DNA of 64,000 nt from Candidatus Levybacteria bacterium RIFCSPHIGHO2_01_FULL_38_26. GTDB taxonomy: Bacteria; Patescibacteriota; Microgenomatia; Levybacterales; UBA12049. Positions within the stretch are counted from its first letter, which is position 1; the number at the start of each line of letters is the position of its first letter. A program made the position numbers and the translations under genes. The stretch is taken from NCBI GenBank assembly GCA_001782075.1, contig MFNO01000013.1, positions 48,608-112,607 on the forward strand. Reading direction: 5' to 3'. The notes below the pieces were generated by a model, which saw only the letters and a program-made list of their open reading frames with translations, searched no databases and was not told the DNA's origin. Of this stretch, positions 40,503 to 54,745 are shown in pieces.

Positions 40503-41645
40503 ATGAAAAAAAAGGATTATGAAATTGACGACAATATAATTCGTACCTGGTCAACATACATCCCCAAAGAAGCGATTTCCGAGGTTATAAAAACATTAAG
40601 GTCAAAGTGGATTAATACCGGCAAAAAAGAAAAAGAACTGCGGGGGATTGCAGCGAAAAAGTGGAGTTTTCCTTATTGCGTTGCTGTTAACAATTGTACT
40701 GCTGCTCTTAGGTCAAGTTTGGCTATCCTTGGCGTTGGACCTGGGGATGAAGTCATATCAACTCCTTATACTTTTATTGCCACAAACACCGCTATTCTTG
40801 AACAAGGAGCAAAGCCTGTATTTGCAGATATTAAATACGATGATCTTAATATAGACCCAAAAAGCATAGAGAAGAATATAACCAAAAAAACAAAGGCAAT
40901 TATGATAGTGCATTATGGCGGCAATCCTTGCGACCTGGATGAGTTAAGAAAGATCGGAGTGAAACATAATCTGCCAATTATAGAAGACGCCGCGCATGCT
41001 TTGGGAAGCATGTATAAAGGTAAATACATAGGTTCAACTGGAGAACTTGTATGTTTTTCTCTTCAGGTAGTTAAAATTATTAATTCTGGCGATGGAGGAT
41101 TAATATCAACATCAAAAAAAAGATACTACCAAAAGCTCAAAAAAATAATTTGGTACGGTATTGATAGAGAGGAGAAAAAAACAAGCCTTTTGGACCCTTT
41201 GCCAGACAGCTTCAAGGGCGATGTTCTTGGATTTAAATATAATATGAATGATATTATAGCTTCGCTTGCTCTGGCAGGGGTTAATAATTATGATGCTCCA
41301 GCCAGAAAAAGAAGGATAATAGGAGAGAGTTATAGGAAGGAACTTGCCAAATGCAGGGGGCTGCGTCTGATGAAGTACTATGATGATAGAAAGCCAAACT
41401 ATCAGATATTTCCTGCTCATGTAGAGGATAGACTTAAGTTTGCCAGGTACATGAAAGCCCACAATATTCAAGTAAACATAAACAACCGGCGTAATGATAT
41501 TTACCCTATGTTTGGAGGGCTTCGAAAGGATTTACCTGTGCTTGCGAAAGCTGATAAAGACGTAGTTTTACTGCCGATGCATGCGGATCTTACAGAAGGG
41601 CAAGTTGATTACATTATTCAGAAAGTTCGGGATGCGTGTAAATGA
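40503..41645 (+). CDS. DegT/DnrJ/EryC1-family PLP-dependent sugar aminotransferase
   Basis: NCTAALRSSL...DEVISTPYTF...SLQVVKIINSGDGG. Confidence 0.8.
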   Translation: MKKKDYEIDDNIIRTWSTYIPKEAISEVIKTLRSKWINTGKKEKELRGIAAKKWSFPYCVAVNNCTAALRSSLAILGVGPGDEVISTPYTFIATNTAILEQGAKPVFADIKYDDLNIDPKSIEKNITKKTKAIMIVHYGGNPCDLDELRKIGVKHNLPIIEDAAHALGSMYKGKYIGSTGELVCFSLQVVKIINSGDGGLISTSKKRYYQKLKKIIWYGIDREEKKTSLLDPLPDSFKGDVLGFKYNMNDIIASLALAGVNNYDAPARKRRIIGESYRKELAKCRGLRLMKYYDDRKPNYQIFPAHVEDRLKFARYMKAHNIQVNINNRRNDIYPMFGGLRKDLPVLAKADKDVVLLPMHADLTEGQVDYIIQKVRDACK

Positions 41646-42796
41646 GGCGGGCAAAAAGTATTATTTACGTCAATTATTCTCCCTATGAAAACTCAGGAAA
41701 GATACTGGATTTTTTACTTGAGAATTTTGAGCAAATATTTTTATTTTCCTTAGGATTTTATGGACTTGGAAACAAAAAGAAATATAATAGATTGCTGATT
41801 TTTATAAATGGAAAACTAATTGAGAAAAAACCATTGGGACAAATTCCTATTCCTCAAGGACTTTTTTTTCTGCTTTTGCCCCTCAGGTCTTTAATAATTT
41901 TAATTCAAATATTGGTATATTCATTGTGGTTGAAAAGAAAATATGGAAGGATAGATTATTATTTCACAGTTAACGCGTTTACTGCATGGATAGGTACGAT
42001 TTTAAAAAAAATTGGCTTGGTAAATAAGACAATTTTTTGGGTTTGGGATTATTATCCTCCATATCATGACAATAAAATAATAGTTCTGATGAGACAGATA
42101 TATTGGTATTTTGACAAGGTAAGCTCCCACTCGGATTATGTAGCATATGTCAATCAAAAATTAATAGATTTGCGAAAAGACACGGGAGTTCTCTCCAGAA
42201 ACGCGAGCTTTCAGATAGTTCCTATAGGAACAGAAAAGTTTAACATAAAACCCCGAGTAAAAAAAGATGTGGTATTTGGGTTTATTGGAGTTTTAAAAAG
42301 AAGCCATGGGCTTGATATTATTTTTGACAATGAAAAACTTATTGGTAAATATCTTCCAAATGCGCGTCTGGAGGTAATCGGGTCGGGACCTGATGAGATG
42401 CATTTCAGGCAAAGGGCAAAAAAATCTCCTATTTTAACGAAATTCTACGGTTTTTTAGAAGACAAAAAAATTAATGAGGTATTGAAGAAATGTTCTATCG
42501 GTATTGCCGCATATGTTCCAGACAAAAGTAATGTGTCATACTACGGAGATCCTGGAAAAGTAAAAAGATACTTAAGCTTGGGTCTTCCTGTAATCGTCAC
42601 AAAAGTAGTTGGTTTTTCTAAGGAAATTGATAATTCAAAAGCTGGGGTAGCAATAGAATATGACAACTCAGAAAATCTAATTGATGCGATCAAAAAAATA
42701 ATGTCTGATTACCCAACTTATCAGAAAAATGCATTATCATTAAGCAGGAAATATTATTATAAGGTTATTTATAAAAAGATGTTTGCGTTGAAATAA
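41642..42796 (+). CDS. GT4-like glycosyltransferase (divergent)
   Basis: GT-B C-terminal half: FGFIGVLKRSHGLDII...LPVIVTK. Confidence 0.5.
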   Translation: MRRAKSIIYVNYSPYENSGKILDFLLENFEQIFLFSLGFYGLGNKKKYNRLLIFINGKLIEKKPLGQIPIPQGLFFLLLPLRSLIILIQILVYSLWLKRKYGRIDYYFTVNAFTAWIGTILKKIGLVNKTIFWVWDYYPPYHDNKIIVLMRQIYWYFDKVSSHSDYVAYVNQKLIDLRKDTGVLSRNASFQIVPIGTEKFNIKPRVKKDVVFGFIGVLKRSHGLDIIFDNEKLIGKYLPNARLEVIGSGPDEMHFRQRAKKSPILTKFYGFLEDKKINEVLKKCSIGIAAYVPDKSNVSYYGDPGKVKRYLSLGLPVIVTKVVGFSKEIDNSKAGVAIEYDNSENLIDAIKKIMSDYPTYQKNALSLSRKYYYKVIYKKMFALK

Positions 42797-42797
42797 T

Positions 42798-44006
42798 ATG
42801 AAGACTGTTTTCATAGCGAATTTTCTCCCCGATACAAATTACACAAGAGACCTAAGCCAAGGTTTCATAGAAGCTATGGAGAAAAGGGATAAATTATTTT
42901 TATGCGGAAGAAAGGGCGAGCCTGTGATTGACGGAAAAAAACCAGACGTGGATTTGGTTTGGAAAAAAGGAGCATTTTTTTTTATTCCAATTTTTATGTA
43001 TATCTTAAAAAGACGTCCAAACCTAATACATTTTCAACACGAATTCATAATGTATGGAGGGGTACTATCCGGATTTATTTTTCCATGGCTAATTCTGTTT
43101 TTGAGAATAATCAAATTTAAAATTGTAATAACCCTGCACGTAATTATCTCCACAAAACAGCTTAATAAAGATTTTTTCGAAAGCTTTGGTCTTAAATATA
43201 ATTTTCTCAGTAGAATTTCCGCCAAACTTTTTCTAGCTTATAGCTACAAATTATTAGTTATTTTTTCTAATATCGTAATCGTTCACACGCCATTAATGAG
43301 ACGTGTTCTAATCGAGCAATACAAATGTAACCCTGACAAGATTAAGGTAATTGAACTTGGAAATAGAATGCTATCAAAACACCCAATACCTATCCGTAAT
43401 CCCTACATCGTAAAAAAATTCCCAATGTTAAAGAATAAGGACATTATCTTGGTTTTTGGCCGGCTATCTCCCAGAAAAGGACTTGAGTTTTTAATACATT
43501 CTTTTAGGGAAATGGTAGCTGAAAATAAGAAAAAAAACTGGATTTTGGTTTTCGCTGGAGAAGTTAGCAATGATTATTTGGGATATAAGCAAAAAATAGA
43601 AAACCTAATAGAAAAATTAAAAATATCGAGATTTATAGTTATAACAGGATTTGTAAATGAAAAAGAAGTTGAAGAATTGCATAGGATGGCAAAAGTTTCA
43701 GTCATTCCTGCGCTTTTTTCTGTAAGCGTAAGCGGTGCAATATCTACGGCTTTAGCATATAAAATACCATTGCTTGTTGCAAATGTTAGTCCGATAGCAG
43801 AAGAAGTTAAAGGAAATAATATAGGGCGGATATTTGATAATGCAAATATTAATTCGTTTGCACAGGAGCTTAAAAAATTAATATCAGATAGGTATAATCA
43901 TAAGAAGATAATGAGTTCGATTGAAAAGGTTGCTGCCAGGCGATACTGGACTGTAGTTGCCCGTGAACACTATAAAACTTACAAAAACTCTTGTATTAGA
44001 AGGTAG
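42798..44006 (+). CDS. GT4 glycosyltransferase
   Basis: ILVFGRLSPRKGLEFLIHSF. Confidence 0.7.
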   Translation: MKTVFIANFLPDTNYTRDLSQGFIEAMEKRDKLFLCGRKGEPVIDGKKPDVDLVWKKGAFFFIPIFMYILKRRPNLIHFQHEFIMYGGVLSGFIFPWLILFLRIIKFKIVITLHVIISTKQLNKDFFESFGLKYNFLSRISAKLFLAYSYKLLVIFSNIVIVHTPLMRRVLIEQYKCNPDKIKVIELGNRMLSKHPIPIRNPYIVKKFPMLKNKDIILVFGRLSPRKGLEFLIHSFREMVAENKKKNWILVFAGEVSNDYLGYKQKIENLIEKLKISRFIVITGFVNEKEVEELHRMAKVSVIPALFSVSVSGAISTALAYKIPLLVANVSPIAEEVKGNNIGRIFDNANINSFAQELKKLISDRYNHKKIMSSIEKVAARRYWTVVAREHYKTYKNSCIRR

Positions 44007-44018
44007 TATAATGTAAAA

Positions 44019-44777
44019 GTGGATAAAAATAAAATAGAATTGCATTCTCCAACTAAAATATTAAGAAAGTACACTTTTTTATTTGCAAAAGTTCTTCGCG
44101 ATTTGCGGATCTCTCCGGATGCATTAATAGCAGGAAGGTTGTTAATTTTTGGTTTGGGATCGGCTTATTTATTTTACATCGGGACCTATGTATCCAATAT
44201 GCTGGCCGTTTTATTTTTATTTACAAATTTTTTCCTTGGTTTGATTGGTGAAGATTTAGCTAGAAACTTCAATCTAAAAACTAAGTTGAGCGAATTTTTG
44301 GATGCAAATTCACACTATTTTATTAACAGTATAATTATTATCTCGATAACTATCTATATGTTTCAAGTAGAGCATCCGCTTAGATTTATAGGCCTTTTTG
44401 CTTTTTTTGGCCACTCTTTTTCTGTAAAAATATTTACATTTTTAAAATCAACGTTTCTGATATCGGTTATTTCAGAAAATGCCAAAATGGAAAAGTTTTT
44501 TTTGCAAAACAAACCGGATTTAATAAGTATGTTGCTAAAGGAGCTTATGATTCCAAAAAATTTTGTTTTTTTTCTTTTCTCAAGCATACGCTATCATCTG
44601 ATTCTTGGTGCTTTGTTGGGAATAATGCCAATTATGATTTTGTTGTATGCGATAATGATTAATTTTCAATGGTTAACTTTGGTTGTTGCGCTTATTTACT
44701 ACTATAAATTTTATAACACTGAAAAAAGAATTATCTTTTTTAAAGCGTTAAAAGCACTTGAAGTAAAGGATAAGTAA
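44019..44777 (+). CDS. CDP-alcohol phosphotransferase-family membrane protein, degenerate paralog
   Basis: About 6 TM. GEDLARNF...LSEFLDANSHYF aligns to the active-site motif of the downstream gene, but with G->S and the final D->H. Confidence 0.5.
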   Translation: MDKNKIELHSPTKILRKYTFLFAKVLRDLRISPDALIAGRLLIFGLGSAYLFYIGTYVSNMLAVLFLFTNFFLGLIGEDLARNFNLKTKLSEFLDANSHYFINSIIIISITIYMFQVEHPLRFIGLFAFFGHSFSVKIFTFLKSTFLISVISENAKMEKFFLQNKPDLISMLLKELMIPKNFVFFLFSSIRYHLILGALLGIMPIMILLYAIMINFQWLTLVVALIYYYKFYNTEKRIIFFKALKALEVKDK

Positions 44778-44784
44778 AAGTAGT

Positions 44785-45558
44785 ATGAAAAAAAACTCAA
44801 ATCAAGAAAGACGTCTAGATTTTATAGCCAAAACATTGAAAAATCTTTCTGTGAATGTTGCTAGATTTCTAAATGGAATAGGTGTTACGCCCAATATGAT
44901 TACATCATTAAGATTATTAATAGGTGCTGGATCTTCTTATTTATTTTTTCTTCAGGGATATGTAACGGATTTGCTTGCCATTTTCTTTTTAGGCTTATTT
45001 TTTTTTCTTGATTTGGTGGACGGAGACTTGGCGAGAAAATTCAAAAAAACTTCCAAGCTGGGAGAATTTATGGACAGTTTTATAGACGCTGTTATAATTA
45101 ATTTGGTTTTGCTTGCAATTTATGGAAACCTAAATGCTGCAGCTAATCCTTTTAGTTATATTCCTGTAATAGCCATCATGGGACAAGGGCTGTCTGTTCT
45201 CATATCTCAAAACTATGAAGCTAAATTTGGCATATCGGGCTTGTCTTTAAATCCTAAGATACAATCTTATCGTAAGAACAATGACGTTGATGCTATTAGC
45301 AAATTTCTTTTTGAACTTTTGACACCGACAAATATCTTAACTTCACTTTTTTCCACATTAAAATATTATCTGATTGTTGGCGCGTTATTTAATATAATTC
45401 CTCTTGCGATAACAGCTTATGCCCTTATGATTAATTTAAGATGGATAATGCTTTCTTTTACATTAGCTTTATACTATAAGTACAACCAGCTTGTAAACAA
45501 AATCAATTTTTTTTATATTCTAAAAGCCTTAGAGCGCAATCGTCCACTTGTTATATAA
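44785..45558 (+). CDS. CDP-alcohol phosphotransferase-family membrane protein (intact motif)
   Basis: DLVDGDLARKFKKTSKLGEFMDSFIDAV is D-G-x2-A-R-x8-G-x3-D-x3-D; about 6 TM. Confidence 0.7.
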   Translation: MKKNSNQERRLDFIAKTLKNLSVNVARFLNGIGVTPNMITSLRLLIGAGSSYLFFLQGYVTDLLAIFFLGLFFFLDLVDGDLARKFKKTSKLGEFMDSFIDAVIINLVLLAIYGNLNAAANPFSYIPVIAIMGQGLSVLISQNYEAKFGISGLSLNPKIQSYRKNNDVDAISKFLFELLTPTNILTSLFSTLKYYLIVGALFNIIPLAITAYALMINLRWIMLSFTLALYYKYNQLVNKINFFYILKALERNRPLVI

Positions 45559-45601
45559 GGGAGAGAGGATAAAACTCTAAGAAACTTAGTTTGGTCTTAG
45601 T

Positions 45602-47989
45602 ATGTTTGAATCGAAAAAACTACCTGAAGCCTTTATAAGCAAAGCAGATACTTTACAAATATTGTCCGGTGTATTGAAAAAATCTTTAGTAGAAGATTTG
45701 TATGTTCTCTTGGAATCGGATTGGAAAAAAAATAAAACTGAGGTTGTAAGAAATATTAAGAATAGATTTAGGGGTAGAAACATAGTAGTTAGAAGTTCTG
45801 CATTAAATGAAGACACTAATCATTATTCAAATGCCGGGACCTTCAAAAGCATATTAAATGTAAATAGTTTGCATGAAGTTTCTATAGTTTCTGCTGTTGA
45901 AAGCGTCATAGGTTCTTATAAAAAAAAGGGTGCAGGAGATTCTAATAATCGCGTACTTGTTCAAACACAAACTATAGATGTATTATCTAGTGGGATAGTA
46001 TTAACAAGAGACTATAATGATTCTCCATACTATGTAATAAATTATTCAGATGGAAAAGATACAACGACTGTTGCAAGGGGTCTCTACAGTAAGACTTTGA
46101 AAATCTTAAAATCAGACCATGTAAATATTCCACTACGCTATAAAACTATAGTTAACGCTGTACGAGAAATAGAGGAGCTTGTTCCTAATATTGCCCTCAA
46201 TATTGAATACGCGCTTAAAAGCAATGGTCAAGTAGTTGTATTTCAAGTTAGACCATTGATTGTAGCTGGGGAAGAGCATTTAGTTAGTGACGTGGATGTT
46301 TTTGATAAAGTCGAGAGGTTAAAAACAAGGTTTAGGAAATTGTCTCAACCAACTCCTCATTTAGCCGGAAAAGTTACATATTTTGGTGATATGCCCGACT
46401 GGAATCCGGCAGAAATAATTGGAAGCTCGCCGCGCCGCTTGGCCTTTTCGTTGTATGCAGAGATTATTACTGATGATATTTGGCATAGAGCTAGAACAAG
46501 CCAAGGATATACTGATGTAAATCCGGCTAACCTTGTTGTAACATTTGGGAACAAACCTTATGTAGATATTAGAAATTCGTTTAACTCATTTATACCGGTT
46601 GGTTTAAGTCAACCCCTTAGGGAAAAACTAATAAATTTCTACCTAGAAAAATTAAAAAGAAATCCTCAGTTTCAAGATAAAGTAGAATTCGAGATCGTTT
46701 ATACGTGTTACGATCTAGCTTTCAATAAACGCTCAAAAGAACTACTAAAGTTCAATTTTTCAAAAGAGGAGATAGACCAAATAAGAACAGCATTGTTGCA
46801 TTTGACCAACAACCTTTTGAGTGCAGAGTCTATCCGTGCCGACCTAGGTCAAAATGAGGAGCTAGAAAAGTATAGAGAAGCTTTTCCTGCAGTAAAAAAA
46901 CAAGCGTCTCCTCAGGAAAGAGTAGAGAGGGCATTGAATTTGTTAGCAATGTGCAAGAAAATGGGAACCCTTCAATTTTCAAGATTGGCAAGACTGGCAT
47001 TTATTGGAAAAATACTGCTTAGAAGCTTGATAGACGAAGGCGCATTAGATTATATGAATTATTACAGATTTCTGGAATCAATTAACACAGTTACATCTAG
47101 TTTCTCAGCAGACATGGAAAAATTGAACAATGGAAATCTAAAAAAAACAGACTTTTTAAATAAATATGGCCATTTGCGGCCGGGAACGTATGACATAAGA
47201 GTTCCTCGGTATGATGCGCATGATTATTTTTCGTTAATAAAAGCTTCAAATAGCGAAGGTGAATTGGGCAAAAAAAAATTTATACTGGATACTGAAGGTT
47301 ATAGGAAAATATCATTTCTATTAAAAAAGCACGGGTTTAGAATAGATGCTAATGAGCTATTTCAGCTTACAAGATTTGCTTTAGAAGCAAGAGAATATTC
47401 AAAGTTTTTATTTACAAAGCCGCTGAGCGATGCTATGGAGCACATTGCCATTGCAGCAGAGGACTTAGGGTTTTTGCGAGAAGATATATCACATTTAGAT
47501 CTTGAGGCAATTAAGATGGCTAAAGATAAAGACGCGACATCTATTAAGGCGCAATGGGGTAAAAGGATCAATAAAAATAGAAAAGACTTTGTATCAAATA
47601 GCTGTATATCTTTGCCTCCTGTAATTTTTTCTGCAGAAGATTTCGATGTTATTTCTTATTATGATTCCCAGCCTAACTATGTGACAAATAAGAAAATTCA
47701 AGGCGATATAGTACTTTTGGACGGACAAGCAGACAAAAAAATTTCTGGGAAAGTAGTGCTTTTGGAAGCTGCAGATCCAGGTTATGATTGGATTTTTGCA
47801 AAGAAGCCGGCGGCTTTGATTACAAAATACGGAGGGACAGCATCTCATATGGTAGTGAGGTGCGCGGAGTTAGGGTTGCCGGCAGCAATTGGCCTGGGAG
47901 ATCATTTATACGAATTGTTATTGAATGCAAATTCTATTATGATTGATTGCGAAAATCAAAAAATTGAATTGAAAGGTATGGTTAGTTAA
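45602..47989 (+). CDS. PEP-synthase/PPDK-like ATP-grasp + phospho-His swivel-domain kinase (candidate L-glutamine kinase, Cj1418-like)
   Basis: 795 aa. C-terminal PEP-utilising mobile domain YGGTASHMVVRCAELGLPAAIGLG, with the His about 58 residues from the C-terminus. There is no PEP-binding TIM-barrel domain. Confidence 0.7.
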   Translation: MFESKKLPEAFISKADTLQILSGVLKKSLVEDLYVLLESDWKKNKTEVVRNIKNRFRGRNIVVRSSALNEDTNHYSNAGTFKSILNVNSLHEVSIVSAVESVIGSYKKKGAGDSNNRVLVQTQTIDVLSSGIVLTRDYNDSPYYVINYSDGKDTTTVARGLYSKTLKILKSDHVNIPLRYKTIVNAVREIEELVPNIALNIEYALKSNGQVVVFQVRPLIVAGEEHLVSDVDVFDKVERLKTRFRKLSQPTPHLAGKVTYFGDMPDWNPAEIIGSSPRRLAFSLYAEIITDDIWHRARTSQGYTDVNPANLVVTFGNKPYVDIRNSFNSFIPVGLSQPLREKLINFYLEKLKRNPQFQDKVEFEIVYTCYDLAFNKRSKELLKFNFSKEEIDQIRTALLHLTNNLLSAESIRADLGQNEELEKYREAFPAVKKQASPQERVERALNLLAMCKKMGTLQFSRLARLAFIGKILLRSLIDEGALDYMNYYRFLESINTVTSSFSADMEKLNNGNLKKTDFLNKYGHLRPGTYDIRVPRYDAHDYFSLIKASNSEGELGKKKFILDTEGYRKISFLLKKHGFRIDANELFQLTRFALEAREYSKFLFTKPLSDAMEHIAIAAEDLGFLREDISHLDLEAIKMAKDKDATSIKAQWGKRINKNRKDFVSNSCISLPPVIFSAEDFDVISYYDSQPNYVTNKKIQGDIVLLDGQADKKISGKVVLLEAADPGYDWIFAKKPAALITKYGGTASHMVVRCAELGLPAAIGLGDHLYELLLNANSIMIDCENQKIELKGMVS

Positions 47990-47990
47990 G

Positions 47991-48692
47991 ATGCTGGTTG
48001 CGATATCGCAAAGAAATTTATATTTAAAAAAATACGGATCAGTAGATATGCTGGAAACAGCATATGTAAGATTATTTAGTGGTTTTGGCATCGATCTAGT
48101 TCAGATGCCCAACATTGGTAAGGATATAAAAAGATATATACAACAAATTTCTGTTGAAGGAATAATATTAAGCGGTGGAGGTGACGTTGATCCTTCACTT
48201 TATGGAGGAGATTCTACTAATCCAGGTGATTACTCTTTAGACAGGGATGAGACTGAAAAGTCATTGCTTGAAACTGCGCTTGTAAAAGACATACCGGTTT
48301 TAGGTATTTGCAGAGGAATGCAAGTAATTAATGTTTATTTTAATGGCAAATTACTGCAGGATATGAAAGCAGAAATAAATAATAAAATAGATCATGTAGG
48401 CAAGAAACATAAAGTGACAGTATCAATGGAATCAATAGTGGATGCATTAGGGACAAATACTGTAGAAGTGAATTCTTACCATAATCAAGGTATTGCCAAA
48501 GCTCAGCTGTCTGAAGATTTGGTTTCTTTTGCAAATGCTCAGGATCAAACAATTGAGGCTGTATATCATCCAGGGCGTTCAATTGCCGCTGTTATGTGGC
48601 ATCCTGAACGATCTAATCCTCCTACTTTTTTGGACAAGCTATTGATTAAATCATTTGTTGTCAGGGAGGCATTTTGGAGAAAGCGAAAGTGA
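47991..48692 (+). CDS. Class-I glutamine amidotransferase / peptidase-C26 gamma-glutamyl hydrolase (Cj1417-like)
   Basis: GICRGMQVIN (nucleophile Cys) and MWHPER (catalytic His/Glu). Confidence 0.8.
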   Translation: MLVAISQRNLYLKKYGSVDMLETAYVRLFSGFGIDLVQMPNIGKDIKRYIQQISVEGIILSGGGDVDPSLYGGDSTNPGDYSLDRDETEKSLLETALVKDIPVLGICRGMQVINVYFNGKLLQDMKAEINNKIDHVGKKHKVTVSMESIVDALGTNTVEVNSYHNQGIAKAQLSEDLVSFANAQDQTIEAVYHPGRSIAAVMWHPERSNPPTFLDKLLIKSFVVREAFWRKRK

Positions 48693-49474
48693 GAGCTATC
48701 ATTTTAGCAGCAGGGGAAGGTAAAAGATTAAGACCATACACAGAAGATCTTCCTAAAGGGATGTTGAAATTTGATGGCAAAGCATTAATTGAAAGACAAA
48801 TAAGCCTTTTTCAAGATAATGGTATCTATGATATTTGTATAGTTACAGGTCATCTGGCGGACAGAATTAAATATTCTAACATACGCTACTTTCATAACCC
48901 CAATTATGAGCAAACAAATATGGTAGAATCCCTCTTTTGTGCAAGGACGGTGTTGTTTGGAGAAATAGTAATATCTTACGCGGATATTGTTTTTGAAAAG
49001 AGAGTTTTGCGTCGTGTATTAGAAAGCAAAGCAGACGTAGGAGTAACGGTTGATACGTCTTGGAAGGAGTATTGGCTAATGCGGCATGAGGATGCAAATA
49101 TAGACATAGAAAGCTTAAAACTGCATAAAAAGGGAGGAATAATAGAGATAGGAAAACTTGAGAAATCAGCAGAAAACATAGATGGAAGATATGTAGGTTT
49201 ATTAAAATTTTCACCACGAGGGATTAAAAAACTAGTATCGGTTTATGACAAAGCTAAATCTATTTTTTGGAATAAATCTTGGCAAACCTCCGGCAGCTTC
49301 CAGAAGGCGTACATGACAGATTTGCTGCAGGCTTTAATAGATGACGGTCAGGAAATTAATGCGATAAAAATTCAGCACGGCTGGTTAGAGGTTGATACGG
49401 CAAGAGATTATGAGCAGGTGATCAGGCTTAAGAGAGAAAATATGTTAAAGAAATTTTTCAATCCTGAGGCTTAA
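48674..49474 (+). CDS. LicC-like sugar/phospho-headgroup cytidylyltransferase (Cj1416-like nucleotidyltransferase)
   Basis: AIILAAGEGKRLRPYT...PKGML, with a LicC/CTP-transferase-like length of 266 aa. Confidence 0.7.
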   Translation: MEKAKVRAIILAAGEGKRLRPYTEDLPKGMLKFDGKALIERQISLFQDNGIYDICIVTGHLADRIKYSNIRYFHNPNYEQTNMVESLFCARTVLFGEIVISYADIVFEKRVLRRVLESKADVGVTVDTSWKEYWLMRHEDANIDIESLKLHKKGGIIEIGKLEKSAENIDGRYVGLLKFSPRGIKKLVSVYDKAKSIFWNKSWQTSGSFQKAYMTDLLQALIDDGQEINAIKIQHGWLEVDTARDYEQVIRLKRENMLKKFFNPEA

Positions 49475-49495
49475 ATTAGACAAGAATAAATTTTT

Positions 49496-50035
49496 ATGGT
49501 TACTATAGTTTTTGAGTCACATGCAACAAGCTTTGATAATGAAAATCATGTTGTTTCAGGCTGGAATGATGTGGAATTATCTCCATTGGGCGTGCAGCAG
49601 GCAAAAGATTTAGGAAAGCGAAGGGAAAATGAAAAGTTTGTTGCAATCTTCTGTTCGGATCTTCAGCGATCTTATAAAACGGCCATAATAGCTTTTGGAA
49701 ACAAATCTCCAATTATTCAAGATTTTAGATTGAGAGAGTGTGATTATGGTGATTTAACGCAACGACCCAGTAGTTTAATAGATAATGAAAAACTTAATCG
49801 GATAACAAACCCTTTTCCCAATGGAGAAAGCTATACGCAAGCATCTGAAAGAATAAAGGAGTTTTTAGAAGATTTGATAAAAAACCATGAAGGTAAGAAA
49901 GTGATGATTATCGGACACAAGGCAACGCAATATGGATTAGAGCATTGGATAAAAAAAGAGTCCCTGGAAAAGGTTATTGCAGCTCATTGGAAATGGCAGC
50001 CCGGGTGGACTTATGAGCTTAGAGCTTTTCGCTGA
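49496..50035 (+). CDS. Histidine-phosphatase-superfamily (PGM-like) protein with an atypical catalytic motif
   Basis: FESHATS...GW replaces the canonical RHGE(T/S): the catalytic His is kept and the Arg becomes Ser. A second His lies in IIGHKAT. Confidence 0.6.
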   Translation: MVTIVFESHATSFDNENHVVSGWNDVELSPLGVQQAKDLGKRRENEKFVAIFCSDLQRSYKTAIIAFGNKSPIIQDFRLRECDYGDLTQRPSSLIDNEKLNRITNPFPNGESYTQASERIKEFLEDLIKNHEGKKVMIIGHKATQYGLEHWIKKESLEKVIAAHWKWQPGWTYELRAFR

Positions 50036-50036
50036 T

Positions 50037-50753
50037 ATGCAGCATGCATCGGTAGTAAAATTATTTAAAGAACAAATAGGTCATTATTCAAGCAGAGATC
50101 AGGCTGTTGATTCTAAAATTGTCTCACTTTTTAAAGGTTGGGTAAGAAAAGATAAAGTTAATAAACACTTAGAAATTTGTGAGTTTGGTGGTGGAGCAGG
50201 ACAATTACTTAGTCAACTTAGGGAAAATTACCACAATGCAAGCTTCACTAATGCAGAAATAGTAGAAGATTATAAAAAAAAACTAGTATCGGATAAGATA
50301 AAATTTGTCAAAACTTCAATTATTAAATCTGTGTTTACAGATAAATCATTTGACGTTTTGATTGCTAGGGATGTATTCCATCACTTAATTGGAAAAAGTT
50401 ATGATGAAACGGTCAAAAATCAAATAACTGCGCTTAATGAATTGAAACGCCTGCTTCGTCCTGGTGGAGTAATTTTCATTGAGGAGCTTACGATGATTGC
50501 AGAAATAACTTCGCGTGCTATTTATACTCTTTCAAGCTTTAACGCAAGATTGGGATTACGTTTACCGTTTATTAATATAAGCACAAATACAGTTGTTGCT
50601 TTTTTAACAAAAGATAAGCTGATAAGATTTTGTAAGCAGGTTTTTGTAAAAGAAAAAATTTACATAACGAAGATTAATATCAAGAATGATTTCAAGTCAA
50701 GGATTCTACGCCTGGGAAATAAGGCAGATAAAATAATAGTAACTATTCAATAG
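50037..50753 (+). CDS. Class I SAM-dependent methyltransferase
   Basis: ICEFGGGAGQLL, then RLLRPGGVIFIEE. The start was placed at MQHAS, just after the upstream stop; the track ORF starts at 49977. Confidence 0.65.
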   Translation: MQHASVVKLFKEQIGHYSSRDQAVDSKIVSLFKGWVRKDKVNKHLEICEFGGGAGQLLSQLRENYHNASFTNAEIVEDYKKKLVSDKIKFVKTSIIKSVFTDKSFDVLIARDVFHHLIGKSYDETVKNQITALNELKRLLRPGGVIFIEELTMIAEITSRAIYTLSSFNARLGLRLPFINISTNTVVAFLTKDKLIRFCKQVFVKEKIYITKINIKNDFKSRILRLGNKADKIIVTIQ

Positions 50754-52116: not shown

Positions 52117-53811
52117 ATGCGAAAGTCTTTTCTTTCTATAATACTTTTTTTAATAATACTTTTAGCTTATTGGGATCTACCAAAAACTTTTTTTCAGCAA
52201 GATGAATGGCAAAGCTTAGCGGCCGCTATTTATTACCAAAGTATAAGTTTTTCCGGAATAGTGCAATCTTTTTTGCCTTCAGATGCTATTTCTCATTTTA
52301 ACCCCTTGGCAAAAATATATGAATGGTTTACGTTCTTATTTTTTTATACTAATTTTGAGTTTTATGCCTGGTTGAGTATTGGTGTGCACGCAATAAATAC
52401 ATTTCTACTTTACTATTTCGTTTTATTGACATTTCAGAACAGAAAACTTGCATTTTTTGCCGCTATTTTATTTGGTGTAAACAGTATAGCAAGCCAGGCG
52501 GTAACCTGGGTCGCCGCTATAAACAGCTATGAAATCCCTACAGTTTTTATACTCCTATCGTTAATATTTTTCCATCGTTTTCTTAGACAAAAAGAACATC
52601 GGAATAGAAATGTGCTGTTTTCTTTTTCTTTGCTTTTTATTTCACTTTTGTTTCACGAAATTGGCATTTTTCTCCTCATTTTCTATCCCTTAATATTCTT
52701 TTTATACACCAAGTCCGAATGGAGAAAATTATTCCCTGCTCTTCTTTACAGCTTGCTGCTTTTCATTTTTGCCTTTTTTCTTATTAGAGTTCCTTTTTTC
52801 TTTGGATTTACAACTACTCTTCCGGTAGTAACAGATATTTCTCGTCCTTCTGTAACAGTTTATCCTTACCGGTTGGTTTCTATAGCAATGAAGTCCTTTG
52901 CAGGGAGTCTGATTCCCGAGAGAACTCTTATTGAAATTTCGCAAAGTGTTGTCTATCTTGGCTATCCTCAATATTTAACGGCAGATAATCTTCCAAATCC
53001 TTTTATTACTCAATCAATTGTCTTTGATTTAACCTCTTACATGTTTACCGTAATTATTGTCTGTATAATAATTTTTTGCATAAAACTGACTCGAGATAAG
53101 AAACTTAAAGACGCGCTTTTTTGGGCACTGCTTTTTGTCCCAGCCAGTTTAATTCCGTATGGTTTTGTCTTGGGAAAAGCAGGATACGCGTCTATACTTG
53201 AACCTAAATTTTTTTATGTCGGTAGTATTGGAATAAGCATACTTGTTGCAGCTGCTGCATATTCTTTGCTTATTAAATTTTCAAAACAAAAGATACTAAA
53301 AACTATTGTTTATCTTTTGCTGGGATTATATTTTGTACACCATCTTATGGCAGTAAAAACTAATTCAAATAATTTAGTGGAAATAGGAACACAGAGAAAA
53401 GAATTTCTTACAAATATTAAATCTTCTTATAAAAAACTTCCACAAAATGCTGTATTTTTTACCCAAAGCGATACTGCTTATTACGGTATGCCAGATGATG
53501 AAAGAATTCTGCCCGTGCAGATCGGTTTTGGCAAGATGCTTATGATATGGTATCAAAAAGACGAGCGATTTCCGGGATGTTTGTATGAAGGACAATTTTT
53601 ATTGCCGTTATTGGAAGAAGGTTATCGAAGCTGTGGTGGTCGCGGCTTTGGGTATTTTAGAAATTATGATAAACTTATAGACACAATTAAAACGAACAAT
53701 ATTAAGGTAGAAAGTGTGATTGCTTATTCATGGAATGGAAAAAGTGAAAAACTTGAAGACATCACGAGTGAAATACGGACAAGAATAAAAATAGATCTTG
53801 AAAATAAATAA
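52117..53811 (+). CDS. GT-C membrane glycosyltransferase (ArnT/PMT-like)
   Basis: WDLPKTFFQQDEWQSLA (DE motif) and a C-terminal soluble domain YYGMPDDERILP...GYRSCGGRGFGYFR. Confidence 0.65.
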   Translation: MRKSFLSIILFLIILLAYWDLPKTFFQQDEWQSLAAAIYYQSISFSGIVQSFLPSDAISHFNPLAKIYEWFTFLFFYTNFEFYAWLSIGVHAINTFLLYYFVLLTFQNRKLAFFAAILFGVNSIASQAVTWVAAINSYEIPTVFILLSLIFFHRFLRQKEHRNRNVLFSFSLLFISLLFHEIGIFLLIFYPLIFFLYTKSEWRKLFPALLYSLLLFIFAFFLIRVPFFFGFTTTLPVVTDISRPSVTVYPYRLVSIAMKSFAGSLIPERTLIEISQSVVYLGYPQYLTADNLPNPFITQSIVFDLTSYMFTVIIVCIIIFCIKLTRDKKLKDALFWALLFVPASLIPYGFVLGKAGYASILEPKFFYVGSIGISILVAAAAYSLLIKFSKQKILKTIVYLLLGLYFVHHLMAVKTNSNNLVEIGTQRKEFLTNIKSSYKKLPQNAVFFTQSDTAYYGMPDDERILPVQIGFGKMLMIWYQKDERFPGCLYEGQFLLPLLEEGYRSCGGRGFGYFRNYDKLIDTIKTNNIKVESVIAYSWNGKSEKLEDITSEIRTRIKIDLENK

Positions 53812-54745
53812 CATGAAATTATCTCACAAAAAAATAGTTGTAACCGGTGGTGGTGGGTTTTTAGGAAAATATGTTGTTCAGAGATTAAAGAAAGAAGGCG
53901 CTTCTGACATTTTTTCTCCCCTATCGAAAGAATATGACCTCAGAAATAGGGAAGTTTGTAGGAAAATAGTGAAAAATGCGGATATAGTTATCCACTTAGC
54001 TGCGCAAATAGGCGGAATAGGTTTTATAGGAGAGCACATGGGTGAGGTATTTTATAACAATATAGTTATGGGGGTTGAGCTTATGGAAGCGTCACGACTT
54101 GCAGGCGTTGAGAAATTTGTGAGTGTTGGTACTGTTTGCGAATATCCTAAAAGTCCGCCAGTCCCTTTTCGAGAAGAAGATTTGTGGGAAGGATATCCTG
54201 AAGAAACTACTTCTTCCTACGGTTGGGCTAAAAAAGTGCTTATCGTTCAAGGGAAAGCGTATAAAAAACAATACAATTTTAATGCCATACATCTGCTTCC
54301 TGTTAATTTATATGGTCCACATGATAATTTTGATAGAACATCAAGTCACGTTATTCCAGCTCTTGTTAAGAGAGTTATTGAGGCAAAAGAAAAAAAGAAA
54401 CCTTATGTTAAGATTTGGGGAACAGGAACTGCTACGCGAGAGTTTCTGTATGTCCAGGATGCAGCCGAGGGAATAGTCTTGGCAACAAAAAAGTATGATT
54501 CTACTGAGCCAGTTAATTTGGGAACAGGTGTTGAGACTTTTATCAAAGATCTTGTCAAAATTATTGCCGAACTTACAGGGTATCATGGAGAAATAAAATG
54601 GGACGCTACAAAGCCAGATGGCCAGCCGAGAAGGAGACTTGATGTATCAAAAGCAAAAAAAGAATTTGGTTTTTCAGCAAAAACCTCCCTCAAAAAGGGA
54701 CTTAGAGCTACAATTGAATGGTATCAACGGTATAGAACTATATGA
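53798..54745 (+). CDS. fcl: GDP-L-fucose synthase (GDP-4-keto-6-deoxymannose 3,5-epimerase/4-reductase)
   Basis: VVTGGGGFLGKY, LAAQIGGIG and NLYGPHDNFDRTSSHVIPALV are GMER signature regions. Confidence 0.8.
   Translation: MKINNMKLSHKKIVVTGGGGFLGKYVVQRLKKEGASDIFSPLSKEYDLRNREVCRKIVKNADIVIHLAAQIGGIGFIGEHMGEVFYNNIVMGVELMEASRLAGVEKFVSVGTVCEYPKSPPVPFREEDLWEGYPEETTSSYGWAKKVLIVQGKAYKKQYNFNAIHLLPVNLYGPHDNFDRTSSHVIPALVKRVIEAKEKKKPYVKIWGTGTATREFLYVQDAAEGIVLATKKYDSTEPVNLGTGVETFIKDLVKIIAELTGYHGEIKWDATKPDGQPRRRLDVSKAKKEFGFSAKTSLKKGLRATIEWYQRYRTI

What the first reader, a model, noticed from the sequence alone, without database searches (positions are those of the whole stretch)
44019..45558. Tandem CDP-alcohol phosphotransferase-family paralogs, one active-site-intact and one degenerate, immediately upstream of the phosphoramidate cassette
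Gene 44785..45558 carries a textbook D-G-x2-A-R-x8-G-x3-D-x3-D motif (DGDLARKFKKTSKLGEFMDSFIDAV). The upstream twin aligns colinearly but has S for the Gly and H for the last Asp (GEDLARNFNLKTKLSEFLDANSHYF). CDP-alcohol phosphotransferases move a phospho-headgroup from a CDP-activated donor onto an acceptor alcohol at the membrane. Sitting directly before a cassette predicted to make a CDP-linked phosphoramidate, they are attractive candidates for the missing phosphoramidyl-transferase step, or for another CDP-activated headgroup such as phosphoglycerol or phosphocholine transferred onto a glycan or lipid. This would be a different solution from the Cj1421/Cj1422 transferases. The degenerate copy may be a non-catalytic partner.
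Basis: partly seen in the sequence, partly recalled or inferred. Interest (0 to 1): 0.7.

Follow-up and report, generated by a model that had tools for sequence, protein, structure and literature searches.

The report
Phospho-headgroup transferase pair beside phosphoramidate genes
Two adjacent membrane-enzyme genes, one intact and one catalytically dead, sit in the same operon as genes predicted to make a CDP-activated phosphoramidate; they are the best candidate for attaching this rare P-N group to the cell surface of an uncultured bacterium, by a route different from the one known in Campylobacter.

Summary
Genes 44019-44777 (A) and 44785-45558 (B) are tandem paralogs, 39% identical over their full length. 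B has all eight signature residues of CDP-alcohol phosphotransferases and passes Pfam PF01066.

Both belong to a rare clade of ~250-aa proteins, about 40 cluster representatives among 1.84 billion. The clade is not PgsA, PssA or PIPS. In 9 of 10 other loci a clade member lies within 5 kb of a cytidylyltransferase-domain gene, inside a glycosyltransferase cluster. Four of those genes are cytidylyltransferase-PEP-mutase fusions, which mark phosphonate synthesis.

In this window the only nucleotidyltransferase in 64 kb is the LicC-like gene of the co-operonic glutamine-kinase/C26-hydrolase/cytidylyltransferase triad. No Cj1415-like kinase is present. Two DPANN archaeal loci, chosen only by their kinase homolog, also carry a PF01066 gene beside the same triad. 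Five CPR loci outside glycan islands do not.

Best reading (~0.5): B transfers the phosphoramidate (or phosphoglutamine) headgroup from a plain CDP donor onto a membrane-bound glycan or lipid. A is a non-catalytic partner. This is a new variant of a known enzyme kind and has not been tested biochemically.

The parts
44019..44777 (+). Gene A: a 252-aa catalytically dead paralog (pseudoenzyme) of the CDP-alcohol phosphotransferase clade.
   Evidence: ORF. It is 39% identical to B over its full length. It has no Pfam hit. Signature residues D1, D2, G1, G2 and D4 are replaced by G, G, E, S and H, and T40 of the cytosine-binding motif is replaced by I. It scores 230 bits against the clade HMM. The AF2 model has pLDDT 93.2 and the same helix pattern as B.
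44785..45558 (+). Gene B: a 257-aa CDP-alcohol phosphotransferase with an intact active site, belonging to a rare ~250-aa clade.
   Evidence: PF01066 at 57.8 bits against a cutoff of 22. All eight signature residues and the PNMIT motif are present. The AF2 model has pLDDT 93.2. The 28 best Foldseek PDB matches are all CDP-alcohol phosphotransferases, led by AF2299 (4q7c, TMq 0.63). Best PDB sequence hit is AF2299 at 1.8e-9.
45602..47989 (+). Glutamine-kinase-like (Cj1418-like) PEP-utilizer-family kinase, 795 aa.
   Evidence: NCBIfam PRK05849 at 847.7 bits against a cutoff of 501, plus PF00391 and PF01326. Homologs 47-49% identical are named 'glutamine kinase' by JGI.
47991..48692 (+). Peptidase_C26 / class-I amidotransferase-like hydrolase; a candidate Cj1417-type gamma-glutamyl-CDP-amidate hydrolase.
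   Evidence: PF07722 at 2.7e-41. Best NCBIfam hit is GCDPHdlase at 7.7e-30 and 104 bits, below the cutoff of 250. It follows the kinase in every related locus.
48674..49474 (+). LicC-like NTP_transf_3 nucleotidyltransferase; a candidate Cj1416-type CTP:phosphoglutamine cytidylyltransferase. It is the only nucleotidyltransferase in the 64-kb window.
   Evidence: PF12804 and PF00483. Best PDB hits are LicC CTP:phosphocholine cytidylyltransferase 1jyk at 1.5e-16, then PntC 6pd1. It is 62%, 50% and 47% identical to the gene at the same cassette position in L016, L026 and L029. No other nucleotidyltransferase turned up in Pfam scans of all ORFs >=150 aa or in the phmmer screen.
49496..50035 (+). 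Histidine-phosphatase-superfamily protein (His_Phos_1); its role is unknown.
   Evidence: PF00300 at 4.5e-30. A His_Phos_1 gene also accompanies the kinase/C26 pair in L009-L012 and L014, and the start of a 70%-identical one is seen at the end of L016.
49977..50753 (+). SAM-dependent methyltransferase; a candidate O-methylase of the transferred phosphoramidate (inferred only).
   Evidence: PF08241 at 2.8e-12. It is the last gene of the co-directional gene string.
41642..44006 (+). Two GT1/GT4-type glycosyltransferase genes (41642-42796 and 42798-44006) directly upstream in the same gene string.
   Evidence: PF00534 and PF13692. Junctions are a 4-nt overlap, 1 nt and 12 nt.

Best explanation
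B is a membrane-embedded CDP-alcohol phosphotransferase of a rare ~250-aa clade. Members of this clade work in cell-surface glycan clusters. They take a small polar phosphorus headgroup from a CMP-linked soluble donor made by neighbouring genes and put it on a hydroxyl of a membrane-associated acceptor (a lipid-linked glycan or a lipid), releasing CMP. In this Levybacteria operon the neighbouring genes are a glutamine kinase, a LicC-like cytidylyltransferase and a C26 hydrolase. These are predicted to convert glutamine, ATP and CTP into CDP-L-glutamine and then cytidine diphosphoramidate. B is therefore predicted to transfer the phosphoramidate (or phosphoglutamine) headgroup directly from the un-3'-phosphorylated CDP donor, and the downstream methyltransferase may then O-methylate it. 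This would bypass both the Cj1415 kinase step and the Cj1421/Cj1422 transferases of Campylobacter. A has lost the metal-binding residues and the catalytic base but keeps the fold and the C-terminal half. It most likely acts as a non-catalytic subunit paired with B, because all solved family members are homodimers. What is shown: family membership, active-site status, operon layout and recurrent synteny. What is inferred: donor identity, acceptor, methylation and heterodimerisation.
For: Family and active site. The roles of the signature residues come from PMC4634129: D1-D3 bind the metal, D4 is the catalytic base, and a D4N mutant is nearly inactive; the solved enzymes are homodimers. The clade is distinct: phmmer against 1.84 billion representatives gave only 40 hits at E<=1e-10. 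Full-length matches were confined to ~250-aa proteins, whereas ~190-200-aa relatives matched only the N-terminal ~110 residues. Context rule: in 9 of 10 other clade loci a cytidylyltransferase-domain gene lies within 5 kb. It is a small CTP_transf_like gene in L003, L004, L005, L018 and L023, and a CTP_transf_like-PEP_mutase fusion in L002, L017, L024 and L025. All of these loci sit among GT2/GT4 genes. In the window the only nucleotidyltransferase in 64 kb is the LicC-like gene of the cassette. A, B and the cassette form one co-directional string with junctions of 43 nt or less and no + strand terminator-like site downstream of 42313. Independent recurrence: two DPANN loci were picked only through kinase homologs (P0190, P0261). 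They carry the same triad (kinase 46-49%, C26 42%, NTP 47-50% identical), with a PF01066 gene one gene upstream (L026-28) or directly beside the NTP gene and followed by a cytidylate kinase (L029/30). Those PF01066 proteins score 89-94 bits against the clade HMM. No APS-kinase or AAA_18-type kinase is present in the window, so a plain CDP donor, the natural substrate type of this enzyme family, is expected. Precedent: CDP-OH genes paired with PntC-Ppm fusions are recognised as predicted phosphonolipid clusters (PMC8942020).
Against: There is no biochemical evidence for any step in this organism. The clade is not specific to the cassette: most members lie in loci with no Cj1418-like gene within 10 kb. 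The five closest sampled CPR kinase loci (L009-L016) have no PF01066 gene. Four of them replace the NTP transferase with an AAA_17/18 P-loop protein, so the cassette's product may be used differently or be soluble in those lineages. The C26 protein scores below NCBIfam's cutoff for the Cj1417 equivalog. The Woesearchaeal PF01066 neighbour lacks D4 (D3->E, D4->L), so it may not be active. Adjacency within a large glycan island could be coincidental. The role of His_Phos_1 is unexplained. The AF2 model of A is driven by an alignment of active relatives, so it is weak evidence that A keeps the fold.
Confidence: 0.5

Rival explanations
1. B transfers a conventional CDP-activated alcohol (glycerol-phosphate, ribitol-phosphate, phosphocholine, phosphoethanolamine or inositol-phosphate) onto the glycan or a lipid. 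The donor is made by an enzyme encoded elsewhere in the genome, or by the LicC-like enzyme acting on an ordinary phospho-alcohol. Adjacency to the glutamine-kinase cassette reflects only shared residence in a large glycan island.
For: Five clade loci pair the transferase with a small TagD/RfaE-II-like cytidylyltransferase and no kinase cassette. The best PDB match of the window's NTP transferase is a phosphocholine cytidylyltransferase. The whole 64-kb window is a glycan island, so many unrelated functions lie side by side. The closest CPR kinase loci lack PF01066.
Against: The window holds no TagD-like gene, PEP mutase, choline or ethanolamine kinase, or second nucleotidyltransferase. The LicC-like gene is a fixed member of the kinase/C26/NTP triad in L016, L026 and L029, at 47-62% identity. 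A PF01066 gene recurs beside that triad in two archaeal lineages.
Confidence: 0.3
2. [quoted passage not shown]
For: The Pfam family is the same. Weak NCBIfam similarity exists to archaetidylinositol-phosphate synthase (55 bits), PIP synthase (40 bits) and PgsA (37 bits). Two homologs are labelled 'phosphatidylglycerophosphate synthase' by JGI's automatic annotation.
Against: Every NCBIfam equivalog score is far below its cutoff: 55 against 180, 40 against 170, 37 against 109 and 21 against 107. Canonical ~190-200-aa enzymes align only with the N-terminal ~110 residues. The closest solved structure is AF2299, whose group has a small hydrophilic donor pocket suited to soluble donors (PMC4634129). 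Clade members consistently sit in glycosyltransferase or phosphonate clusters beside cytidylyltransferases, not beside lipid genes. A is catalytically dead.
Confidence: 0.07
3. A is simply a decaying pseudogene-like duplicate with no function, and B acts alone as a homodimer.
For: A has lost 5 of 8 signature residues. It has the longest terminal branch in the subclade tree. No ortholog of A was found: it forms a singleton 50% cluster, P0007. No other locus has a tandem pair.
Against: A is a full-length ORF with no frameshift or stop. It retains many clade-conserved non-catalytic residues (P36, F54, G57, Y59, N62, A83, R84, D97, F148, P181, R193, Y194, G199, L246 in B numbering). It is 47% identical to B in TM5/6, as well conserved there as B is to its close relatives. 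It lies 7 nt upstream of B in an operon-like arrangement.
Confidence: 0.3

Closest known systems
AF2299 and IPCT-DIPPS of Archaeoglobus fulgidus (CDP-alcohol phosphotransferases that use soluble CDP-alcohol donors; PDB 4o6m/4q7c, 4mnd)
   Same: Same Pfam family and same predicted fold (Foldseek TMq 0.63 to 4q7c, 22% identity). Same eight-residue signature in B. Same genetic logic as IPCT-DIPPS: a nucleotidyltransferase that makes a CDP-linked soluble donor, paired with a CDP-alcohol phosphotransferase. The IPCT/DIPPS NCBIfam model is hit by both B (9e-12, over its DIPPS half) and the window's NTP transferase (8.6e-14, over its IPCT half).
   Different: B has no cytosolic N-terminal domain. It carries an insertion of ~35 residues between TM4 and TM5 with clade-specific motifs, and the proteins are ~250 aa long. 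The predicted donor is a P-N compound, not inositol phosphate. The genes are separate, not fused. There is an extra dead paralog.
Campylobacter jejuni MeOPN pathway (Cj1415-Cj1418 plus the transferases Cj1421/Cj1422)
   Same: Homologs of the glutamine kinase, the C26 hydrolase and a LicC-like cytidylyltransferase lie in one operon inside a surface-glycan cluster, with a methyltransferase next to them. The pathway is described in PMC11800397 and PMC3907429.
   Different: The window has no Cj1415-type (APS-kinase-like) CDP-amidate 3'-kinase. The predicted donor is therefore plain CDP-amidate rather than its 3'-phosphate, and the predicted transferase is a CDP-alcohol phosphotransferase rather than Cj1421/Cj1422. 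A His_Phos_1 gene is present that has no counterpart among the MeOPN genes named in the two Campylobacter papers read here. The organism is a CPR bacterium, not a campylobacter.
Predicted phosphonolipid/phosphonoglycan clusters that pair a CDP-OH gene with PntC-Ppm fusions (e.g. the 'Burkholderiales_CDP-OH' gene cluster families; PMC8942020, PMC6697681)
   Same: Two of B's three closest relatives outside the window, the 256-aa and 266-aa members in L002 and L017 (39-41% identical), sit directly beside cytidylyltransferase-PEP-mutase fusions; in L017 phosphonopyruvate decarboxylase follows. A more distant member in L024 sits one gene from the fusion, followed by the decarboxylase and an Fe-alcohol dehydrogenase. 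The logic is the same: a CMP-activated small P-headgroup is transferred by a PF01066 enzyme.
   Different: The window has no PEP mutase. The headgroup would carry a P-N bond instead of a P-C bond. The published phosphonate-linked CDP-OH enzymes are themselves only predicted, not characterised.
PgsA / PssA / PIP synthase (housekeeping CDP-DAG-dependent phospholipid synthases)
   Same: Same superfamily, signature motif and catalytic chemistry: attack of an alcohol on the beta-phosphorus of a CDP-linked donor, with CMP released.
   Different: Scores are far below every equivalog cutoff. Similarity is confined to the N-terminal nucleotide-binding half. The genomic context is glycan-related, not lipid-related.

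Membership tests
CDP-alcohol phosphotransferase (Pfam PF01066, CDP-AP) | Match to the family HMM above the curated cutoff | tested here: met
   B scores 57.8 bits against a cutoff of 22. A has no Pfam hit at E<=0.1, so this feature is met for B only. A is recognisable only through B, the clade HMM (230 bits) and a weak NCBIfam hit (2e-6).
CDP-alcohol phosphotransferase (Pfam PF01066, CDP-AP) | Eight-residue signature D1xxD2G1xxAR...G2xxxD3xxxD4 (PMC4634129) | tested here: met
   B has D76, D79, G80, A83, R84, G93, D97 and D101, all present. A has G, G, E, A, R, S, D and H at these positions, i.e. 3 of 8, so the feature is not met for A. A should not be filed as an active member.
CDP-alcohol phosphotransferase (Pfam PF01066, CDP-AP) | P(D/N)xx(T/S) cytosine-binding motif at the start of TM1 | tested here: met
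   B reads PNMIT. A reads PDALI, with the T/S lost. The motif definition is from PMC4634129.
CDP-alcohol phosphotransferase (Pfam PF01066, CDP-AP) | Juxtamembrane helix plus six-TM fold shared with solved members | tested here: met
   The AF2 model of B has pLDDT 93.2. The top 28 Foldseek PDB hits are all CDP-APs, with the best TMq 0.63 to AF2299. This is a predicted structure, not a solved one.
CDP-alcohol phosphotransferase (Pfam PF01066, CDP-AP) | Dimeric assembly, and metal-dependent transfer with CMP release | not testable with these tools
   This needs expression and an enzyme assay, or multimer modelling and co-purification.
Housekeeping phospholipid synthases (PgsA, PssA, PIP synthase, archaetidylinositol-phosphate synthase, ClsA) | Score at or above the NCBIfam equivalog cutoff | tested here: not met
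   B scores, against cutoffs: archin_ph_syn 55.4/180, PIPSynth 39.8/170, pgsA 36.9/109.1, ClsA 32.9/240, pssA 20.8/107. A scores 27.8/180 against archin_ph_syn.
Campylobacter-type MeOPN biosynthesis system | L-glutamine kinase (Cj1418-type) | tested here: met
   Window 45602-47989 scores 847.7 bits against NCBIfam PRK05849 (cutoff 501) and has PPDK_N and PEP-utilizers domains. Homologs are annotated as glutamine kinase by JGI.
Campylobacter-type MeOPN biosynthesis system | gamma-Glutamyl-CDP-amidate hydrolase (Cj1417-type) | tested here: inconclusive
   The best NCBIfam hit is GCDPHdlase at 104.4 bits, below the cutoff of 250. The next best family scores 53.8 bits.
Campylobacter-type MeOPN biosynthesis system | CTP:phosphoglutamine cytidylyltransferase (Cj1416-type) | tested here: inconclusive
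   The protein is a LicC-like NTP_transf_3 (1jyk, 1.5e-16). It holds a fixed position in the kinase/C26/NTP triad in L016, L026 and L029. No Cj1416 sequence or model was available for comparison.
Campylobacter-type MeOPN biosynthesis system | Cytidine diphosphoramidate 3'-kinase (Cj1415-type, APS-kinase-like) | tested here: not met
   phmmer against all window ORFs, using an APS_kinase-containing fusion (P0217) and an AAA_18 partner as queries, hit only the kinase gene itself. No such domain appeared in the Pfam scans of all ORFs >=150 aa. The gene could still lie outside the window.
Campylobacter-type MeOPN biosynthesis system | Cj1421/Cj1422-type MeOPN transferase | not tested
   No Cj1421/Cj1422 sequence or profile was available. 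Eight multi-TM ORFs in the window have no Pfam or NCBIfam hit, so a homolog cannot be excluded.

The most novel reading that the evidence does not exclude
A CDP-alcohol phosphotransferase is a second, Cj1415- and Cj1421/22-independent solution to the phosphoramidate transfer step, taking the P-N headgroup directly from cytidine diphosphoramidate. Homologous kinase/C26/cytidylyltransferase triads with a PF01066 neighbour occur in both CPR bacteria and DPANN archaea. If the reading holds, phosphoramidate-decorated surface glycans or lipids, so far reported only from Campylobacter, would be a widespread feature of these ultra-small episymbiotic lineages. The dead paralog A would then be a dedicated pseudoenzyme subunit of a heterodimeric transferase.
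Probability: 0.4. Interest if true: 0.8.

Novelty: new variant of a known kind. Interest (0 to 1): 0.62.

Why it matters
O-methyl phosphoramidate is treated as a rare modification reported so far only from Campylobacter. Its final transfer step has genetic support only (PMC3907429, PMC11800397). Here the upstream pathway genes are joined to a well-understood enzyme class whose natural substrates are plain CDP-linked headgroups. That yields a concrete, testable candidate for a phosphoramidyl transferase: one small membrane protein, a donor that can be made enzymatically, and a CMP-release assay. It also suggests that P-N surface chemistry extends into CPR bacteria and DPANN archaea, where more than 2,700 glutamine-kinase homologs were detected. 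More broadly, the ~250-aa clade looks like a general module for attaching unusual phosphorus headgroups, whether phosphonates or phosphoramidate. This helps annotate phosphonoglycan and phosphonolipid clusters whose transferases are also uncharacterised. The active/dead tandem pair would be a rare example of a pseudoenzyme partner in this family.

Tried and rejected
- **Genome and metagenome scans for clade relatives**. The 41-sequence alignment was too diverse to search with. The 9-sequence alignment found only 6 loci in each collection, of which 3 and 2 respectively were full-length members. The co-occurrence sample is therefore small.
- **Third word-index protein search with the clade alignment**. 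It added only three usable members.
- **Viral-contig scan with a glutamine-kinase alignment**. No relatives found.
- **Rfam scan of 40-53 kb**. Nothing found.
- **NCBIfam scan of ten unannotated window ORFs, eight of them multi-TM**. It was meant to look for a Cj1421/22-like or other transferase and gave no hits.
- **Key Taylor and Raushel papers** (PMC5938747, PMC5938751). Neither is held in the library. The pathway description rests on PMC11800397, PMC3907429 and PMC6429109.
- **First bootstrap tree.** It timed out. The reduced version places A in B's subclade but does not resolve whether A is B's sister (7 of 50 replicates) or sister to B+P0002+P0003+P0004 (31 of 50).
- **The idea that the clade is dedicated to phosphoramidate.** Rejected, because most members pair with other cytidylyltransferases.
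- **The PgsA/PssA housekeeping reading.** Rejected on scores, on how little of the protein aligns, and on context.
Full report
**Observation.** A is 44019-44777 (252 aa, GTG start). B is 44785-45558 (257 aa), starting 7 nt after A's stop. They are full-length paralogs at 39% identity (BLASTP 2e-42). B matches Pfam PF01066 at 57.8 bits against a cutoff of 22. A has no Pfam hit. B carries all eight residues of the family signature D1xxD2G1xxAR...G2xxxD3xxxD4, at D76, D79, G80, A83, R84, G93, D97 and D101. It also has the cytosine-binding P(D/N)xx(T/S) motif, as PNMIT.

A is more degenerate than reported. D1->G, D2->G, G1->E, G2->S and D4->H, and the T/S of the cytosine motif is I. Only A, R and D3 remain. 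Structural work on this family shows that D1-D3 hold the catalytic metal and D4 is the catalytic base. Even a D4N mutation nearly abolishes activity, and the solved enzymes are homodimers (PMC4634129). A therefore cannot catalyse the canonical reaction. Among 43 aligned clade members, A is the only one lacking D1, D2 and G1.

**What family.** The window comes from a Candidatus Levybacteria (CPR) genome (source name). An exhaustive phmmer search of B against 1.84 billion cluster representatives gave 1,446 hits at E<=1e-3 but only 40 at E<=1e-10. The strong hits are ~240-270-aa proteins that align end to end. Ordinary ~190-200-aa family members align only over the N-terminal ~110 residues, which form the nucleotide-binding half. 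Every NCBIfam equivalog model scores far below its cutoff: archaetidylinositol-phosphate synthase 55/180, PIP synthase 40/170, PgsA 37/109 and PssA 21/107. The AF2 models of B and A are both confident, at pLDDT 93.2. The 28 best Foldseek PDB matches for B are all CDP-alcohol phosphotransferases. The best is AF2299 (TMq 0.63), ahead of PIP synthases, IPCT-DIPPS, PgsA and PssA. So B is a true member of the superfamily, but it belongs to a rare and distinct clade, not to a housekeeping phospholipid synthase group.

**What the clade does elsewhere.** I recovered ten other loci that encode clade members.
- In L003, L004 and L005 (Peribacteria, Gracilibacteria, Absconditabacterales; genetic code 25), the gene is followed directly by a 150-151-aa TagD/RfaE-II-like cytidylyltransferase. 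The pair sits among GT2 and GT4 genes and large multi-TM proteins.
- In L018 a 134-aa CTP_transf_like gene directly precedes it.
- In L023 a 144-aa CTP_transf_like gene lies one gene away.
- In L002 and L017 it is directly followed by a CTP_transf_like-PEP_mutase fusion. In L017 phosphonopyruvate decarboxylase and a methyltransferase come next.
- In L024 the fusion is one gene away, followed by the decarboxylase and an Fe-alcohol dehydrogenase. In L025 the fusion is about 4 kb away.
- Only L001, a 5.6-kb contig, shows none.

So 9 of 10 loci pair the transferase with a gene for nucleotidyl activation of a small phosphorus compound, always inside a glycan cluster. L003 and L005 are near-identical, which makes this 8 of 9 independent contexts. 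Pairing of CDP-OH genes with PntC-Ppm fusions is already recognised in predicted, uncharacterised phosphonolipid clusters (PMC8942020; PMC6697681).

**The window.** All 64 kb form one surface-glycan island with epimerases/dehydratases, DegT aminotransferases, GT2, GT4 and GT-C genes, methyltransferases and flippase-like genes. From 40503 to 50753 the genes form one co-directional string with junctions of 43 nt or less or overlaps. Their order is DegT, GT, GT, A, B, kinase, C26, NTP transferase, His_Phos_1, methyltransferase. There is no + strand terminator-like site downstream of 42313.

The kinase scores 848 bits against NCBIfam PRK05849 (cutoff 501). The best family for the C26 protein is gamma-glutamyl-CDP-amidate hydrolase, at 104 bits, which is below that model's cutoff. 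The best solved relative of the NTP transferase is the phosphocholine cytidylyltransferase LicC, followed by the phosphonate cytidylyltransferase PntC. This gene is the only nucleotidyltransferase in the whole window. A phmmer screen found no TagD-like gene, PEP mutase, APS-kinase domain or AAA_18 kinase. If B follows the rule of its clade, its donor is made by this cassette.

**Independent test of the link.** The kinase family is large, with at least 2,713 proteins at E<=1e-20. It is concentrated in CPR bacteria and DPANN archaea, where it is usually fused to an N-terminal CTP_transf_like domain. I sampled seven kinase loci without any knowledge of their neighbours.

The five closest CPR loci (53-64% identical) have no PF01066 gene and are not in glycan islands. 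Four of them carry kinase-C26-AAA_17/18, mostly followed by His_Phos_1 and a ~420-aa unknown protein. L016 has kinase-C26-NTP, as in the window.

Both DPANN loci are in glycan or surface islands and do have a PF01066 gene.
- L026-28 reads STT3 ... GT4, a 425-aa gene, PF01066 (219 aa, full signature), GT4, kinase, C26, NTP transferase.
- L029/30 (Woesearchaeota) reads kinase, C26, one gene, NTP transferase, PF01066 (258 aa), cytidylate kinase, MBOAT, DltD-like.

Their kinase, C26 and NTP proteins are 46-49%, 42% and 47-50% identical to the window's. Their PF01066 proteins score 89-94 bits against the clade HMM.

My own rough estimate is not a tool result. If a small genome has 1-2 PF01066 genes among ~1,000 genes, the chance that one falls within two genes of a given cassette is about 1-2% per locus. 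Two hits in seven samples, plus the window itself, is then unlikely to be coincidence. The sample is small, and the Woesearchaeal copy lacks D4 (D3->E, D4->L).

**Mechanism proposed.** In Campylobacter, Cj1418, Cj1416, Cj1417 and Cj1415 make 3'-phospho-cytidine diphosphoramidate from glutamine, ATP and CTP. Cj1421 and Cj1422 are the genetically defined transferases (PMC11800397; PMC3907429). In this window the first three steps have homologs and the Cj1415-type kinase is absent. The expected product is therefore plain cytidine diphosphoramidate, or its precursor CDP-L-glutamine. That is the kind of CDP-X donor on which a CDP-alcohol phosphotransferase acts: an acceptor hydroxyl attacks the beta-phosphorus and CMP leaves. 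The active site of this family lies at the cytosolic face of the membrane (PMC4634129). This fits modification of a lipid-linked glycan, or a lipid, before export. The downstream methyltransferase could then produce an O-methyl phosphoramidate. All of these steps are inference from homology and synteny. The role of His_Phos_1 is unexplained.

**Gene A.** A retains many clade-conserved non-catalytic positions. It is 47% identical to B in TM5/6, about as well conserved there as B is to its own close relatives. Its most diverged segment is TM3, which carries G2, D3 and D4. It falls inside B's subclade on the longest terminal branch, but the order of branching is unresolved. No other locus has a tandem pair, and A has no ortholog in the databases. 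Solved family members are homodimers and A is tightly linked to B, so a B:A heterodimer with one active site is the most economical reading. Simple decay of a duplicate is not excluded.

**Comparison and verdict.** B is a member of the CDP-alcohol phosphotransferase family. It is not a member of the PgsA, PssA or PIPS equivalog groups. Its closest functional analogies are the split IPCT/DIPPS arrangement and the phosphonate-linked CDP-OH genes. The system resembles the Campylobacter MeOPN pathway in its first three enzymes. It fails the Cj1415 test, and the Cj1421/22 test could not be run.

I rate it a new variant of a known kind. Confidence is about 0.8 that B is a non-housekeeping headgroup transferase using a soluble CMP-linked donor, and about 0.5 that the donor is the phosphoramidate-pathway nucleotide. 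The main rival, at about 0.3, is a conventional CDP-alcohol donor with coincidental adjacency. The proposal is sharpened by the clade's context rule and by the archaeal synteny. It is tempered by the clade's evident use of other donors elsewhere and by kinase cassettes that lack any PF01066 partner.

Noticed in passing
L009-L015 (e.g. L009 10001-15582; L011 10001-15535; L012 5995-11571): The closest CPR relatives of the glutamine-kinase-like gene carry a different conserved cassette: kinase, Peptidase_C26, an AAA_17/18 P-loop protein (203-254 aa), His_Phos_1 (188 aa) and a ~410-423-aa protein with no Pfam hit. These loci have no NTP transferase and lie outside glycan islands. The kinase/C26 pair may therefore feed a different, possibly soluble, product in those lineages.
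   Followed up: partly
P0181-P0272; L026 10001-12943; L029 10001-12892: In DPANN archaea the glutamine-kinase homolog is almost always fused to an N-terminal CTP_transf_like domain. A few (P0217, P0228) also carry an APS_kinase domain (PF01583), which would combine Cj1418-, cytidylyltransferase- and Cj1415-like functions in one protein. The family is very large, with at least 2,713 hits at E<=1e-20.
   Followed up: partly
L029 15454-16230 (- strand) and 16297-17079: The Woesearchaeal PF01066 gene beside the cassette keeps D1, D2, G1, A, R and G2 but has E at D3 and L at D4, the catalytic base. It is followed by a cytidylate kinase, which could recycle the CMP by-product, and then by MBOAT and DltD-like genes.
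   Followed up: partly
window 52117-53811 and 54742-56427: This is a second paralog pair in the island: two ~560-aa proteins, each with about 10 TM-like segments, 33% identical (6e-98), with no Pfam or NCBIfam hit. They are separated by an epimerase gene.
   Followed up: partly
window 59934-63290; L023 5263-7905: The 1118-aa multi-TM protein at the end of the window has no Pfam or NCBIfam hit. It is homologous (phmmer 1.8e-23) to the 880-aa protein directly upstream of the clade member in L023. It may be a recurring large membrane partner in these glycan clusters.
   Followed up: no
window 45071-45098 (+ strand): This is the best sigma-70-like match in the 15-kb scan (TGGACA, 16-nt spacer, TATAAT with an upstream TG; 11 of 12 positions). 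It lies inside gene B, about 500 nt upstream of the kinase gene. In this AT-rich DNA it may be chance, because total promoter-like counts do not exceed those in shuffled sequence.
   Followed up: no
window 1-64000: The entire 64-kb window is one surface-glycan island. It has 11 NAD-dependent epimerase/dehydratase genes, two DegT aminotransferases, about ten GT2 and six GT1/GT4 genes, three PMT_2-type GT-C genes, a YfhO-like gene, several methyltransferases (one a C-methyltransferase) and eight multi-TM ORFs with no family hit. This is a very large share of coding capacity for an organism with a small genome.
   Followed up: partly
L006 4007-4726, 7704-8393, 9881-10651: An Undinarchaeota (DPANN) contig has a clade-related PF01066 gene (120 bits against the clade HMM) near two LicC-like NTP transferase genes that are 26-28% identical to the window's. 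No glutamine-kinase homolog lies within 10 kb. This is another example of the nucleotidyltransferase plus CDP-OH pairing.
   Followed up: no
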